In this document: in pieces, positions 38,439 through 44,400 of the stretch
Layout: each line of letters starts with the position of its first letter
Numbering within the stretch: the first letter of the stretch is position 1
Assembly: GCF_009914755.1 (NCBI RefSeq)
Contig: NC_060944.1
Origin: the human T2T-CHM13v2.0 reference genome, Homo sapiens
Reading direction: 5' to 3' (one strand)
Length of the DNA: 64,000 bases
Program-made: the position numbers and the translations under genes
Notes under the pieces: model-generated
Seen by the model: the letters and a program-made list of their open reading frames with translations, nothing else
The model's database searches: none
Told to the model about the DNA's origin: nothing

Positions 38439-41400
38439 GTGAGCTTGTGGGCCCGGGCGTGCGGCTGGGAGGCGGTGCTTGGGGTAGGTGGTAGGTAGTC
38501 ACTGCTCTTGGTTGCACATCCTGGAGCATCCCGTGAGCTCCAAGTAAACTTATAAGCAAGTGTTATTATTATTCTCCCACTTTACAGAGGGGAGAAACCA
38601 AGGACCAGTGAAAATGGGATGATTTTCCCATGCTCCCCCTGCAAGTTAGAGGCAGAGCTGAAAATCCTGCTCCTTTGGAGTCTCTCCTTGGCCCTGATGG
38701 CAGGGGTTTTAGCCACAAGTGGGCTGTGGGAGTGACAGACAAGGGTCAAATCCCAGCAACAACTTGCTGTGTGACCTCAGGCAAGTTACTTGGCCTCCCT
38801 GTGTTGTTGTTTGCTCATCTGTAAAGGTGAAATGTAAAGAAATGTAAAATAGGGTGACCAGTCTGTCCCTAGCAGGATAGAATAATCTCTTGGAGGAGAC
38901 CTTAGTAAAATGTGTTTTCCACCTCCATCCCCCACTCCACTAGCACAAGGGAAACCGAGTCACATCCAGGTACAAAAGGCTAATGACTGTTCTACCAGCT
39001 CAGTGTTTGTGCCCTCTCTGGAATTAGCTTGTGACCATAATGGAGGTGTTTCTGGCGGGGTGTTACTTGGGGTTGGGTCCTCCAGGTTTGGGGAATCAGA
39101 ATTTCTCTGCTTCAGGCCCAAAGTCTGCATTCAAGTCCCCAGAGGAGTCCCCTAATCACCTAGGCTTGGGAGTGGCTGGTCCACAGGATAAAGTCAGTAC
39201 CCTAGGGTTCAAGAGCTTCACTACATGCCCCCTGCAAACTGCTCCAGTTTCTCTGTCGTGTCTGTCCTCACCCTCCAGCCATGCTGAATCTATCCTCTTC
39301 CCCCAACTGTGCCACCTTCTCTCCCACCCACCTTTGCACTTGCTGTGCCCTCTGCCCAGACTGATATCTTTTATCCCTTTGCTTCCTGCTGAAAATTACT
39401 ATTCCCCTTTCAAGTACCAGCTGATCTGTCACCTCCTCCTGGAAGCCTTCCCCAGCTCTTCTCTTCCTACCTAAACCCTCGTGCGGCTCCTACAGCTTGT
39501 TACTGTCATTGCTGGTGACTCCATCTTCCCCCATTAGGCTGGGGCGCTGTGGGACTCATCTCTGGGTCTCTGCCATCGTCCAGCCCAGGGTGGGGCACAG
39601 TGACGGTGAGTGGCCTGGGATACCTGAGTGATTGGCCCAGGGAAAATCTCTCCAACTAAGTGTCTCCACTCCAGAGGTCCAGAGCGCCATGGATGAGAGT
39701 CATATCCTGGAGAAGATGGCAGCCGAGGCAGGCAAGAAACAGCCAGGGATGAAACCTATCAAGGGCATCACCAAGTGAGTAGGGGAGGGGAGCTGGAGGG
39801 TGGTGGTTAGGGCAGAGGGTGGTGGGGATTGCTGTGCCCAAGATCTTAGCAGGCCAGGTAATGGAGCTGGTGAGGGATGTGGGGTCTCTTCCCTGCCTTG
39901 TGCTGTCTTGCTGTGTGGCCTTGGGTAGGTCACTGCTCCTGCCTGTGCCTGGACCTCCTCAGCCATTCACTGGGGACAATTTCTGCTTTGTAGTGAGCAG
40001 GGTCATTTTGAGGAGGAAATGAGGTTGGAAAGTCAAATTTCAACTCTGCATGCAACATGAACTCATTGAATGTACGTGAAATTAAATGAAAACATCCTCA
40101 AATGGTAGAGCTGGAAAGGCATCAACAATCATCTAATGACAAGAGGAAACTGGTTCCTCTGCCAGTGCCACATGAGATTGATCAGTAGGGGCTGCCTGAA
40201 ACGATGCACTTGGGAGGGCTCTGAGGCACTGTCTGCACTCGGCAGGAACTAGGACTGTGATCAACTAGCAATGTCTGCCAAGAGCTCAGGATGGGCAAGT
40301 GGGGGTATGTGTGCCACATCTTTTGTTACCCTGGATCTCAACTGGTGATTCTCAAACAGGGGTGATTTTGCCTCCAAGAAGACATTTGGCAATGTCCAGG
40401 GACATTTTTCATTGTCACAAGTTGCGGGGACTGGGGGAATGCTACTGGTATCTACTGGGCTGAGGTCAGAGATGCTATTAGACATCCAATAATGCACAAA
40501 TCAGCCTCATGACAAAGAATTATCCTGCCCAAAATGTGGATAGTGCCACTTTTGAGAAACCCTGATCTAAGCAAGCCTCCCATTTTGTTGATGGGGAAAT
40601 TGTGGCCCACATAAGGAAATGACACAGCCCAAGGTCACACAGAGTCAGCCATGTGTCCCACCTCCCATATAATGAGTGCTTTCTATATACAAATTGATTC
40701 ATGTCCAGCCTTTTGTTTTGCATTTCATAATGGCCCCATGAATCATGCTTACCCCCATGACATGGGATAGGAGGCCGGGGTTATCGAAAGTCTTCCCAGT
40801 AAAGTGGTGAAGTGGGTGGAGGTCCTGGGTCTTGCCTGCTCAGATCTTATTGGTGTGGCTGCCTGTCCCTTCCCAGTTTGAAGGTGAAGGATGTCCAGCT
40901 GCCCGTCATCACACTGAACTTTGTACCTGGAGTGGGCATCTTCCAATGTGTGTCCACAGGCATGACCATCACTGGCAAGAGGTGAGTGTGGCAGGGGAGG
41001 GGCAGCGGGGAGGAGAACGGCCTTCCTGTCTCATCCTTACATGCACATATATTGAGTGCCTACTGTGTACCATCTGAGTGTTGTAATCTGGGATGATGTA
41101 GACTTGGTCCCTACCTTTGTCAGGAACCAGACCTAAGCACAATCACAGACTGAGTGACTGGTCTAGGACAGAGGAAGCATTGAACAGTGGTGGCGGATGG
41201 TCAGAAAAGGTTATGGGGAGGCAATGACAGCAAAGCAGATTTTAAAGGGTGTGTAGGGGTTCACCAAAACAAGGAGGGAGGGAGAAAAGCTGGTTGTGTC
41301 ACCTGGGGCAGGTCCCATCCCCTTTTCTGTCTTGTAGGGGTGGTCTCCTACCCTTTCTCCCTCTCAGCTGCTCAGATTGTGAGCAAAGAGAAGGCAGGGA

Positions 41401-44400
41401 GAGCGGACACCATGGCAGAGATGCCCATGGTGCCCTCCTGCTCTGTCCTCCAGCTTCATGGGAGGGAACATGGAGATCATCGTGGCCCTGAACATCACAG
41501 CCACCAACCGGCTTCTGCGGGATGAGGAGACAGGCCTCCCCGTGTTCAAGAGTGAGGGCTGTGAGGTCATCCTGGTCAATGTGAAGACTAACCTGCCTAG
41601 CAAGTGAGGGGCTCTGTGGCTGGGGAGGAAGGCCGGTCCATATTGCTATACCACCCAGCATATCACTTCCTGAGCCATGGAACCCCCTTAACCATGCCCC
41701 TTCATGTCCTGTGCCTAAATTCCCGCACTGGTGCACCTGCCCACCTATCCTCGGTGCCTGTGTCCATCTAGCATGCTCCCCAAGATGGTCAACAAGTTCC
41801 TGGACAGCACCCTGCACAAAGTCCTCCCTGGGCTGGTGAGTGACCCAGAGAAAGCCTCCACCCCTCGTTGCTGGGACTGCTTAGGCCAGGGCTGGCAAAT
41901 GCATTTCATGTTGGGTGCTGACCCTGATTGACTGATAGTGGCTGGGAAGGGTTCTGAGACTGTGGCTGGCTCAGTGGAAGAAAATGCCACAATCATCTAG
42001 TGATGTCTGCCATGAACAGAGGAGGAGAAAATGACAGCCTGCATGCACAGCTTGTCAACCGTGCTTTGATGTCCAGTCCCAGGGAAAGAGTCCCGGCTAA
42101 TTTTTGCAGACTTTGATTTGGTCAACAGATCTGGACTCTAGTCCGAGCTCTGCCATTTACTTTCTGTGGGACTTGGGACCTCAGTTTTCTCCCCAGTCCC
42201 TGTCCCACCAGGGCTCTTGGGATGGCCCGTGGTGTACCATTCAGCTGTGTGGAGGCTCTCCATGCAGGGACCCTCTCAGCCCAGTGCCTTCTCTGCTTCC
42301 AGATGTGTCCCGCCATCGATGCAGTCCTGGTGTATGTGAACAGGAAGTGGACCAACCTCAGTGGTGAGTGTAGCCCTACCCACACCTTGCCCCTACCTAG
42401 GGATATCAGGATAGATAGACTTTGATGTCCCATTCCCCATCCTAGTGCCTGCTTCCAGCCCAGCCTTGGGACTAGAGGAGGCTTGAGGTCATGATGTTCA
42501 TCCCCCCACTGTCCCGATGGGAGGCCTGAAGTCCCCAGGGAATCTGGGTTCCTTTTCTCTCATCTCCCTATTCAATACTGCATCCTGAACCCCACAAGAC
42601 TCCAAAGACAGCAGCCCTTCTTTGCTCGTCCACAAGCCTCGTGCCTATGTAGTAATCCCGATGGTAGTAATGCCTGAATCGCCTTTGCTGAGGGGATATA
42701 CTGCCTCCATCATTTTGGGGTCCCATTTTGGGTCCCAAAGCAGGAGAGAGGAAACCTCAGTGACTGGAACTGAAGAAAACTCATTCATGTCCCCAGCAGT
42801 GTGGAATGGGAAAAGTCACTTCACTCTTCTCAGCCTCGGTTTGCTTAGCTGTGAAATAGAGCTGATAATCCTGACCATGCCAGTCTGTTGCAAGGTCCAA
42901 GCAGTGATGGCCTTTGGTGAACTCTCAAGCTCTGTGCTGGCTGAGTGATGTGATTTTCCAGGCCAGGAACCATGGCCTCTATTCTACAGATGAAGTTACA
43001 GAGGCCCAGAAGTGCTAAGGAATTTGCCTTGAGTCACGTGGAGGGCCAGGTGCAGGTAGCAGCTGGCTGGTGCCAGCTTCTCTGGGCTGTTCCTGGGGTT
43101 GGTGCCTCTTTGAGTGGAACCTCCTTTTCACACAGACCCCATGCCTGTGGGCCAGATGGGCACCGTCAAATATGTTCTGATGTCCGCACCAGCCACCACA
43201 GCCAGCTACATCCAACTGGACTTCAGTGTAAGCGCCTAGGGCCACCTGGGAGTTGGGGTCTCAGGCTCACTGGTCTGGGTAGTGGGTGATGCTTCTGCCA
43301 GGACAGGTGGCTGGACTAGGGCTGTGGAGGGAGGGAGGCCCCTCAAGCCGTGGAGGCCAATGCCATGTGGGTGTTTGTGGACCCTGGGCCTCTCCCTCTT
43401 TCTGCTCTAAACGCGAACCTTCAGTGCCCCAGCTGGCTTCTGGGGCTGCTGACTTCACACTCATGATCCCCGCTAGGCTGTTTGCTTCTCCTAGTGAGTG
43501 AAGCAAATATTGTCCCCAGTGAATGGCTGAGGAGGTCCAGGCACAGGCAGGAGCAGTGACCTACCCAAGGCCACACAGCAAGACAGCACAAGGCAGGGAA
43601 GAGACCCCACATCCCTCACCAGCTCCATTACCTGGCCTCCTGAGATCTTTGGCACAGCATTCCCCACCACTCTCACCTCACCCTCACCCAGTTGTATCCT
43701 GCCATTTTGCGGATGGGAACATTGAGACCTTGGGGGAGGGTAGGGCTGGGCTAGGGTCCTGCAGTGAGTTGGTGTCAGAGTTGGGCCCTCACCCAGATCT
43801 CCAGAGCTCCAGGCGAAGAGGTGAGATGCATCTTTCAGGAACGTGAAGTAAAATGGCAAGATGTCACCCCCCTGTGAAGTCTTCCTCCAGCAGGATTCTT
43901 ACACGCCCCGTGTCGATTTCCGCCTGTCTCTTTCTCTTGAGAACAAGGCAGAAATCATGTTCCGAATAAATGAAGCCTCCAACCACTCAGAGCAACTGAG
44001 GCTACTAAAGCAGTGCTAGGAGAAAGTGCCCGTGGTTTAGTGACTGACTCCCTTATCCTCCCAGGCCTCAGTCTACCCACCTGTACACTGGGAGGTTTGG
44101 CCCACTGTAGCCCATTGTGGTTCTCTTAATAAGATTTAATGATTTGCTGACTTTGGGTTTGGCTGGAGCCCCATTTGCTTGGAGGACTGAGACACTCCTG
44201 GCCAACATCCCTCTCGGCCAAGGCTGAGTGTCTCCCTCCTGCTGCCCCATAGCCTGTGGTGCAGCAGCAAAAGGGCAAAACCATCAAGCTTGCTGATGCC
44301 GGGGAGGCCCTCACGTTCCCTGAGGGTTATGCCAAAGGCTCGTCGCAGCTGCTGCTCCCAGCCACCTTCCTCTCTGCAGAGCTTGCCCTTCTGCAGAAGT

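What the first reader, a model, noticed from the sequence alone, without database searches (positions are those of the whole stretch)
39819..43670. 130-bp perfect non-Alu inverted repeat bracketing BPIFB6 coding exons 3-7
Seen: 39851-39980 and 43509-43638 are exact reverse complements over 130 bp. Similarity extends to 170 bp, with all 6 mismatches in the outer flanks. The arms are about 3.5 kb apart; arm 1 starts 45 nt after the coding exon 2 donor, and together they enclose coding exons 3-7 (105+150+64+61+92 = 472 nt). Part of the arm resembles the MIR core (GCTGTGTGGCCTTGGGTAGGTCACT), but independent MIR copies are far more diverged than this. Inference: a perfect core with decayed flanks suggests an older inverted duplication kept identical by gene conversion or selection. 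In the pre-mRNA it would form a long duplex looping out exons 3-7, the known geometry for back-splicing (472-nt circle) or block skipping. Skipping joins a phase-2 donor to a phase-0 acceptor and frameshifts, so this could act as an RNA-structure off-switch and ADAR substrate. At DNA level it is a substrate for a recurrent 3.5-kb gene-inactivating inversion.
Basis: partly seen in the sequence, partly recalled or inferred. Interest (0 to 1): 0.85.

Follow-up and report, generated by a model that had tools for sequence, protein, structure and literature searches.

The report
Perfect inverted repeat inside BPIFB6
Two introns of the human BPIFB6 gene carry the same ~190-base stretch in opposite orientation, with a 130-base identical centre. 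It looks like an old copying accident later evened out by DNA repair, with no evidence yet that it does anything.

Summary
39851-39980 and 43509-43638 are exact reverse complements over 130 bp. Gapped homology runs 191 bp, 39798-39988 against 43501-43689, at 93%. These are the only two copies found in CHM13.

The arm core belongs to an abundant, ancient dispersed repeat; I name it MIR from recall. At least ~70 nt of each arm lies outside that repeat, so the arms are a duplication, not two independent insertions.

All 11 substitutions and one indel lie in the 61 flank bases; none lies in the 130 core bases (Fisher p=1.8e-6). This suggests an old inverted copy (flank K~0.2) whose core was homogenised within roughly the last 10-23 My.

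A second copy of the same repeat abuts arm 2. It ends at the repeat position where arm homology ends (7 of 8 usable comparators). That hints at a homology-primed templated insertion from intron 2 into intron 7.

The RNA duplex is predicted to be strong (-304 kcal/mol core), and the exon arithmetic is right. Back-splicing, skipping, editing, inversion and concerted evolution could not be tested: no other primate genome or RNA data were available. It is a new member of known kinds, of modest interest.

The parts
39798..39988 (+). Arm 1: the whole homologous unit in intron 2. It starts 23 nt after the last base of exon 2 (39774) and ends 888 nt before exon 3.
   Evidence: Gapped local alignment and blastn: 191 columns, 93.2% identity to the reverse complement of 43501-43689.
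39851..39980 (+). Perfect 130-bp core of arm 1.
   Evidence: Exact reverse complement of 43509-43638. GC 59%, no CpG.
43501..43689 (-). Arm 2: the whole homologous unit in intron 7. It starts 273 nt after exon 7 (43227) and ends 563 nt before exon 8.
43509..43638 (-). Perfect 130-bp core of arm 2.
39870..40036 (+). Copy of an abundant, ancient dispersed repeat (MIR by recall) that hosts the right two thirds of arm 1 and seems to run on past the arm's end.
   Evidence: 27 of 40 comparator copies align to 39870-39988 above the shuffle maximum. 3 of 40 alignments run on past 39988, to 40021, 40036 and 40084. None of 29 further comparators crossed 39988.
43692..43834 (-). Second, separate copy of the same dispersed family, abutting the outer end of arm 2 in the same orientation as arm 2.
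   Evidence: Above the shuffle maximum with 6 of 69 comparators (1 of 11; 4 of 29, one of them at a non-collinear place; 1 of 29). Best alignment 43834-43692. Its end maps to family position = arm-1 coordinate 39978-39985 in 7 of 8 usable comparators. It has no direct similarity to arm 1 (score 9, shuffle mean 8.9).
39782..39827 (+). Cluster of six G-runs (>=3 G) straddling the left end of arm 1, just downstream of the exon 2 donor. The arm-2 copy keeps three runs.
   Evidence: Regex on the sequence.
39989..43500 (+). The 3512-nt loop between the arms, holding coding exons 3-7 (40877-40981, 41454-41603, 41772-41835, 42303-42363, 43136-43227; 472 nt).
   Evidence: Annotation given with the finding. 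Frame check: the full CDS translates without a stop to 453 aa in CHM13, so the loop is in the functional orientation.

Best explanation
This is a relic of DNA repair, not a demonstrated device. Step 1 (inferred): long ago, about 190 bp of intron 2 was copied in reverse orientation into intron 7. The copied piece was ~70-100 nt of unique G-rich sequence just after exon 2 plus the 5' part and core of an ancient SINE copy. The copy landed inside, or at the end of, another oppositely oriented copy of the same SINE family. It landed at the family position where the copied tract itself ends, which suggests that SINE-to-SINE homology primed the copying (a one-ended, homology-primed templated insertion after a break or stalled fork). 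Copying stopped in the G-run block next to exon 2. Step 2 (inferred from the mismatch pattern): the arms then diverged by about 18% in the flanks. A later non-allelic gene conversion or template switch, or a series of them whose reach shrank from the edges, made the central 130 bp identical again within roughly the last 10-23 million years. Consequences (predicted, not shown): if both arms coexist in one BPIFB6 pre-mRNA they can form a very stable duplex that loops out exons 3-7. This could favour a low level of back-splicing (a 472-nt circle), skipping of exons 3-7 (frameshift, likely decay of the mRNA), and A-to-I editing. In DNA the arms could mediate a rare inversion. I expect these effects to be small and not selected.
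For: Real and unique: exact 130 bp, 191 bp at 93%, and only two copies found in the genome. Duplication rather than two independent repeat insertions: family homology was detected only from 39870 rightwards in 40 comparators, so at least ~70 nt of shared arm sequence (39798-39869) lies outside it. Independent copies of the family are 60-77% alike in the window and 72-91% among the best 39 genome matches of one comparator. Two layers: 11 substitutions plus one 2-bp indel in 61 flank positions against 0 in 130 core positions, Fisher p=1.8e-6. A clean run of >=130 given 7 mismatches in 174 has P=3.6e-4. Flank Jukes-Cantor distance is 0.18-0.21. Zero differences in 130 bp bounds the last homogenisation at 9.6-23 My (95%) for assumed rates of 1.2e-9 to 0.5e-9 per site per year. 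Insertion at arm 2: a second family copy (43834-43692, minus strand) abuts arm 2 and ends at the family position matching arm-1 coordinate 39978-39985 in 7 of 8 usable comparators; arm homology ends at 39988. Family homology runs 3-11 nt past arm 2's inner end in 4 of 69 comparators, as expected if the interrupted copy resumes there. Known processes: mean non-allelic conversion tract 250 bp, 2.5e-7 per site per generation (bioRxiv 10.1101/135152, passages read); template switching turns near-perfect inverted repeats into perfect ones (PMC5453318, passages read). RNA: core duplex -304 kcal/mol and whole unit -393 kcal/mol. In the minimum-energy fold of 39675-43760 all 130 core pairs form, and forbidding arm 1 costs 309 kcal/mol. 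No other inverted pair in the gene exceeds 58 nt or 86%.
Against: No other species or assembly could be examined, so the age of arm 2, the direction of copying and concerted evolution are all inferred from one genome. The polarity evidence is weak. Inner flanks tested alone matched the family in 0 of 69 comparators for both arms. An anchored test on 26 comparators was null for both (mean z 0.10 and -0.14). Alignments cross the arm-1 boundary by more than 30 nt in only 3 of 69 comparators, and the arm-2 boundary by 3-11 nt in 4 of 69. The shared end position has a rough chance probability of about 4% by my estimate (a window of ~11 positions in a ~260-nt element, length recalled), which is suggestive only. 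One of the 8 usable comparators projected elsewhere (40064), and my filter for 'usable' (outer-flank score >=13, overlap >20) was chosen after seeing the data. Gene conversion between arms already ~18% diverged would be strongly disfavoured, so either conversion was recurrent or the flanks differ for another reason. The step from 0% to ~16% divergence is abrupt rather than graded. Flank substitutions are 4 transitions to 7 transversions, which is unusual for neutral decay (P=0.04 if 67% transitions are expected; 0.27 if 50%).
Confidence: 0.6

Rival explanations
1. Selected RNA switch. The perfect duplex is maintained by selection because looping out exons 3-7 regulates BPIFB6, through a circular RNA or through frameshifting block skipping with mRNA decay.
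For: The geometry fits known cases: inverted complements 888 and 273 nt from the exons that would circularise, a very stable predicted duplex, and no competing pair in the gene. Inverted MIR pairs are shown to drive back-splicing of ciRS-7, circCDK8 and circSPNS1 (PMC7371899, abstract and sections 11-12 read). 30-40 nt of inverted repeat suffice in minigenes (PMC4201285, passages).
Against: No BPIFB6 circle, skip isoform or editing site was found in print (supplementary tables are closed). RefSeq lists no skipped isoform in the window. Zero differences in 130 bp is expected after one neutral conversion. The arm is as far from other family copies (60-77%) as a neutral old copy. Flanking introns are short (1102 and 1025 nt), and arm 1 can be spliced out before arm 2 is transcribed (inference). 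PMC4201285 notes that stronger hairpins do not always help circularisation.
Confidence: 0.05
2. Single young event. One recent templated inverted insertion, possibly specific to apes or humans, made the whole 190-bp copy at once. The messy ends reflect low-fidelity synthesis or micro-switches at the start and end of the copied tract.
For: The perfect core ends where the family homology with the neighbouring copy would have primed synthesis (39980/39981). The left end lies in a G-run block that could stall a polymerase. The transversion-rich flank changes (4 transitions to 7 transversions) are unusual for slow neutral decay.
Against: About 18% single-base differences spread over 53 collinear bases is far above any polymerase error rate I know of (general knowledge). 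The differences are isolated substitutions in a collinear alignment with one 2-bp gap, which looks like age.
Confidence: 0.12
3. Two independent insertions of the SINE family in opposite orientation, with one core overwritten by the other. There was no duplication of unique sequence.
For: Both arms carry the family core, and both loci show weak signs of the family continuing beyond the arm.
Against: The arms share ~70-100 nt left of any detected family homology (39798-39869; 0 of 40 comparators reach it). A separate family copy with its own core already sits beside arm 2, so that locus has two cores.
Confidence: 0.05
4. Recurrent inversion. The arms mediate flipping of the 3.5-kb segment by homologous exchange, and the exchanges with their conversion tracts keep the core identical. 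Some human haplotypes would carry the gene-breaking orientation.
For: Inverted orientation, a 130-bp perfect core and close spacing. Evidence of past sequence exchange between the arms.
Against: 130-190 bp is short for homologous exchange in mammals (general knowledge). CHM13 has the intact orientation. The only paper pairing BPIFB6 with 'inversion' is unrelated by title and abstract. Structural-variant tables in supplements could not be read.
Confidence: 0.05
5. Assembly or polishing artefact in CHM13.
For: None found. It cannot be excluded directly because no other assembly or reads were available.
Against: Each arm sits in its own unique flanks, with graded, non-identical edges and an indel, which copy-paste errors do not produce. 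The gene model maps cleanly across the region.
Confidence: 0.01

Closest known systems
Inverted MIR pairs that drive back-splicing (ciRS-7/CDR1as, circCDK8, circSPNS1; PMC7371899, abstract and sections 11-12 read)
   Same: Non-Alu, MIR-derived inverted complements in the introns flanking the exons, within 3 kb of them. In that work pairing stability is the stated determinant.
   Different: Those pairs are independent, conserved MIR insertions of ~200 nt or more with imperfect pairing, and the circles are observed. Here the arms are one duplicated segment, only part of which is MIR, with a perfect 130-bp core. No circle has been observed, and conservation is unknown.
Short intronic inverted repeats sufficient for exon circularisation (PMC4201285, passages read)
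   Same: The arm length far exceeds the 30-40 nt shown to suffice, and the arms flank a multi-exon block.
   Different: That was shown in minigenes with miniature introns. The paper also reports that not all repeats work and that strengthening the hairpin can fail to help. Nothing was tested for BPIFB6.
Non-allelic (interlocus) gene conversion between duplicates (bioRxiv 10.1101/135152, passages read)
   Same: A sharply bounded identical tract inside older, diverged homology. A tract of at most 130 bp lies within the estimated range (mean 250 bp, CI 63-1000).
   Different: The duplicates here are tiny (190 bp), intronic and inverted. There is no cross-species evidence for conversion at this locus.
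Template switching that turns near-perfect inverted repeats into perfect ones (PMC5453318, passages read)
   Same: The outcome is a perfect inverted repeat, produced without selection by copying from the complementary arm.
   Different: The described events are short-range (tens of bases, within one fork). Here the arms are 3.5 kb apart and the tract is 130 bp.
Inversions mediated by inverted repeats (NAHR; recalled, no paper read here)
   Same: Inverted homologous arms bracketing a short segment.
   Different: Known mediating repeats are usually several hundred bases or more. No inversion is known here.

Membership tests
MIR (mammalian-wide interspersed repeat) fragment, for the arm core only | Similarity to many dispersed, old, mutually diverged copies across the genome | tested here: met
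   The arm core matches 11 other loci in the window at 60-77% and 27 of 40 comparators above the shuffle maximum. One comparator has 459 first-look candidates genome-wide; apart from the query's own locus, the 39 other scored places match at 72-91%.
MIR (mammalian-wide interspersed repeat) fragment, for the arm core only | Match to the curated MIR consensus or model (Dfam/RepeatMasker) | not testable with these tools
   No repeat library was available, and a consensus may not be typed or built. The name MIR rests on my recall of the core motif. The RefSeq soft-mask shows no masked stretch of >=100 bp on either arm.
Intronic complementary sequences that promote back-splicing | Reverse-complementary sequences in the introns on both sides of the circularising exons, close to them | tested here: met
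   The arms are in introns 2 and 7, 888 and 273 nt from exons 3 and 7. All 130 core pairs form in the 4086-nt minimum-energy fold.
Intronic complementary sequences that promote back-splicing | An observed back-splice junction that depends on the arms | not testable with these tools
   No RNA data. Literature searches found nothing relevant. Supplementary circRNA lists are closed.
Non-allelic gene conversion / concerted evolution | An identical tract sharply bounded within older, diverged paralogous sequence | tested here: met
   0 of 130 against 11 of 61 differences, Fisher p=1.8e-6; run test P=3.6e-4.
Non-allelic gene conversion / concerted evolution | Arms more alike within a species than orthologous arms between species | not testable with these tools
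Templated inverted insertion (break repair or template switch) | An inverted copy of nearby sequence, with homology or microhomology at a junction | tested here: inconclusive
   The neighbouring family copy ends at the same family position as the arm in 7 of 8 usable comparators. Continuation after the arm is seen in 4 of 69 comparators by only 3-11 nt. The anchored test was null.
Templated inverted insertion (break repair or template switch) | An ancestral empty site in an outgroup | not testable with these tools
   No outgroup genome.
Inversion polymorphism mediated by inverted repeats | Both orientations seen among haplotypes or species | not testable with these tools
   Only CHM13 was available; it has the intact orientation.
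Known structured RNA or miRNA precursor | Match to an Rfam model | tested here: not met
   cmscan of 39000-44500 at E<=1 gave two sub-threshold hits at 41344-41456 only (23.6 and 21.2 bits against gathering scores of 88 and 55.5). There was none on the arms.

The most novel reading that the evidence does not exclude
The perfect duplex is functional. It is kept identical because looping out exons 3-7 makes a 472-nt BPIFB6 circle or a frameshifting skip that tunes the gene. It would be a duplication-born, MIR-containing pair acting as an RNA-structure switch. Alternatively, it toggles the 3.5-kb segment by inversion in human populations.
Probability: 0.07. Interest if true: 0.55.

Novelty: new member of a known kind. 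Interest (0 to 1): 0.3.

Why it matters
If the history inferred here holds, the locus is a compact natural example of two things. One is ancient SINE copies in opposite orientation guiding a templated insertion. The other is a very small duplicate being re-homogenised long after its birth. It also creates, by accident, the strongest possible intron-intron pairing around five coding exons of an innate-immunity-related gene. That makes a clean test case for whether a perfect non-Alu duplex with short flanking introns is enough to cause back-splicing, block skipping or editing. The practical stakes are modest: BPIFB6 is little studied (73 papers mention it) and nothing links this repeat to a phenotype.

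Tried and rejected
**Standard blastn.** With 2/-3 scoring and E<=1e-3, the extended arms found nothing in the window but each other. 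A 1/-1 scoring scheme was needed to see the family copies.

**Direct arm comparisons.**
- The outer flank of arm 2 against arm 1 was not significant (score 9 against a shuffle mean of 8.9).
- The two inner flanks against each other were not significant either (score 9).

**Inner flanks tested alone against the family.**
- 0 of 40 comparators for each arm.
- 0 of 29 further, 3'-biased comparators for each arm.
- An anchored semi-global test on 26 comparators was null for both arms.

I therefore withdraw my early note that arm 1 clearly continues as the repeat while arm 2 does not. The polarity argument rests mainly on the second repeat copy beside arm 2.

**Whole-genome searches with the three flanks** (43380-43515, 39975-40110, 43691-43860) found only the query itself each time. 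The tool is not sensitive enough for such old copies.

**Other negative results.**
- Rfam: nothing on the arms.
- The RefSeq soft-mask and functional-element table show nothing on the arms.
- Literature: BPIFB6 paired with inversion, circRNA, circular RNA and RNA editing gave 1, 1, 1 and 0 papers, none relevant by title or abstract. I saw only the listings of those papers.

**Considered and rejected.**
- Cruciform extrusion: the 3.5-kb spacer is too long (general knowledge).
- A hidden exon from the donor-like motif in arm 1: the frame hits a stop straight after exon 2, read and not pursued.

**Not done.**
- A genome-wide count of comparable perfect inverted repeats.
- Any cross-species, pangenome or RNA-seq check (no data).
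- Reading of supplementary tables (closed). [quoted passage not shown]

Full report
**1. The observation**

It holds exactly.
- The repeat finder finds one inverted pair in 39000-44500: 39815-39988 and 43501-43674, 174 nt, 96% complementary, 3512 nt apart.
- A base-by-base check shows an exact 130-nt run, 39851-39980 against 43638-43509.
- The ungapped 174 nt hold seven mismatches, at 39818, 39829, 39839, 39847, 39850, 39981 and 39983.
- With one 2-bp gap the homology reaches 39798, giving 191 columns at 93.2%.
- A search of the whole CHM13 assembly finds only these two places. The tool warns that common words are skipped.
- Of the 25 inverted pairs of >=60 nt within 10 kb in the window, the other 24 are 71-91% complementary.
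- Inside the gene no other pair exceeds 58 nt or 86%.

**2. What the arms are made of**

The right two thirds of each arm belong to an abundant, old dispersed repeat.
- With sensitive scoring the arm core matches 11 other loci in the window at 60-77%.
- It matches 27 of 40 comparator copies above the shuffle maximum. The 40 are 11 from the window and 29 from other chromosomes.
- One comparator alone has 459 first-look candidates in the genome. Apart from the query's own locus, the 39 other scored places match at 72-91%.
- I call the family MIR from recall of its core motif. No repeat library was available and I built no consensus.
- No comparator alignment reaches left of 39870. At least ~70 nt of shared arm sequence (39798-39869) is therefore not detectably part of the family.
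- Independent copies of the family are far less alike than the arms. The arms are a duplicated segment, not two insertions.

**3. Two layers of history**
- All 11 substitutions and the one indel lie in the 61 flank positions; none lies in the 130 core positions (Fisher p=1.8e-6).
- Given 7 mismatches in 174 positions, a clean run of >=130 has probability 3.6e-4.
- The flank distance (Jukes-Cantor 0.18-0.21) points to an old first event. By my arithmetic with assumed neutral rates of 1-2.2e-9 per site per year, that is very roughly 45-100 My.
- Zero differences in 130 CpG-free bases bounds the last homogenisation at about 10-23 My (95%), for assumed rates of 1.2e-9 to 0.5e-9.
- One non-allelic conversion is enough. 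The published mean tract is 250 bp (CI 63-1000) and the rate about ten times the point mutation rate (bioRxiv 10.1101/135152, passages).
- Template switching is also known to turn near-perfect inverted repeats into perfect ones, although at much shorter range (PMC5453318, passages).

Three points count against a simple version of this story:
- Conversion between arms already 18% apart is disfavoured.
- The step in divergence is abrupt rather than graded.
- The flank changes are 4 transitions to 7 transversions.

A single young event with messy ends therefore stays open, at about 0.12.

**4. How the copy may have arisen**
- On the minus strand, a second and separate copy of the same family (43834-43692) runs right up to the outer end of arm 2.
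- It scores above the shuffle maximum with 6 of 69 comparators. It has no direct similarity to arm 1.
- Projected through comparators that align to both, its last base maps to arm-1 coordinate 39978-39985 in 7 of 8 usable comparators; one projects to 40064.
- That is where the perfect core ends (39980) and the arm homology ends (39988).
- In 4 of 69 comparators the family alignment continues 3-11 nt past the inner end of arm 2.

My reading is this. A break or stalled fork inside that copy was repaired by priming on the oppositely oriented family copy in intron 2. Synthesis copied leftwards through the core into unique sequence, stopped in the G-run block at 39782-39827, and rejoined.

This is an inference. 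The inner flanks alone match the family in 0 of 69 comparators for either arm, and an anchored test was null. My rough chance estimate for the shared end position is about 4%.

**5. What it would do**
- The sense-strand arms are predicted to form a duplex of -304 kcal/mol (core) or -393 kcal/mol (whole unit).
- In the minimum-energy fold of 39675-43760, all 130 core pairs form. Forbidding arm 1 from pairing costs 309 kcal/mol.
- The loop holds exons 3-7 (472 nt). Skipping them joins phase 2 to phase 0 and gives a 118-aa product, with a stop in exon 8 far upstream of the last junction.
- The geometry matches known cases. Inverted MIR pairs drive ciRS-7, circCDK8 and circSPNS1 (PMC7371899; abstract and sections 11-12).
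- 30-40 nt of inverted repeat suffice in minigenes, although not every repeat works and stronger hairpins do not always help (PMC4201285, passages).

Against a large effect: both flanking introns are short (1102 and 1025 nt), and arm 1 can be removed with intron 2 before arm 2 is made (inference from general knowledge). No BPIFB6 circle, skip isoform, editing site or inversion was found in print, and supplements are closed. Rfam has nothing on the arms.

**6. Verdict**
- The feature is real and non-random.
- Its most likely nature is an old intragenic inverted templated copy whose core was re-homogenised. I put this at 0.6.
- The functional readings are physically plausible but untested, and a selected role is unlikely (about 0.05-0.07).
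- It is a new member of known kinds: intronic complementary pairs, small duplicates under gene conversion, and templated insertions.
- The decisive data are other primate and human assemblies and RNA from expressing tissue. None was reachable here.

Noticed in passing
window 39782-39827 (+): Six runs of three or four G within 46 nt, starting 8 nt after the exon 2 donor. From recall, such G-runs near a 5' splice site often act as intronic splicing enhancers, and on DNA they could form a G-quadruplex. The left end of the duplicated unit falls inside this block.
   Followed up: partly
window 43692-43834 (-): A separate, diverged copy of the same dispersed repeat family lies directly beside arm 2. 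That locus therefore carries two family cores in tandem.
   Followed up: yes
window 38763-38825 with 43542-43582 and 51170-51227; 36181-36249 with 38757-38825: Other copies of the same family in and around BPIFB6 form weak inverted pairs (41-69 nt, 76-77% complementary) with arm 2 or with each other. They are far weaker than the main pair.
   Followed up: no
window 41344-41456 (-): Two sub-threshold Rfam hits (mir-320 at 21.2 bits, E 0.29; mir-207 at 23.6 bits, E 0.5), partly overlapping the start of exon 4 on the opposite strand. Probably chance.
   Followed up: no
window 38435 / 38483 (+): The RefSeq select transcript NM_174897.2 ends exon 1 at 38435. The Gnomon model XM_054322980.1 ends it at 38483, an alternative donor 48 nt downstream.
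   Followed up: no
window 54900-59600: A dense cluster of mutually inverted repeats of 60-174 nt at 74-91% around the PUDPP3 pseudogene. They pair with 47686-47986, the only masked repeat inside BPIFB6, and look like ordinary young interspersed repeats (Alu-like by size).
   Followed up: no
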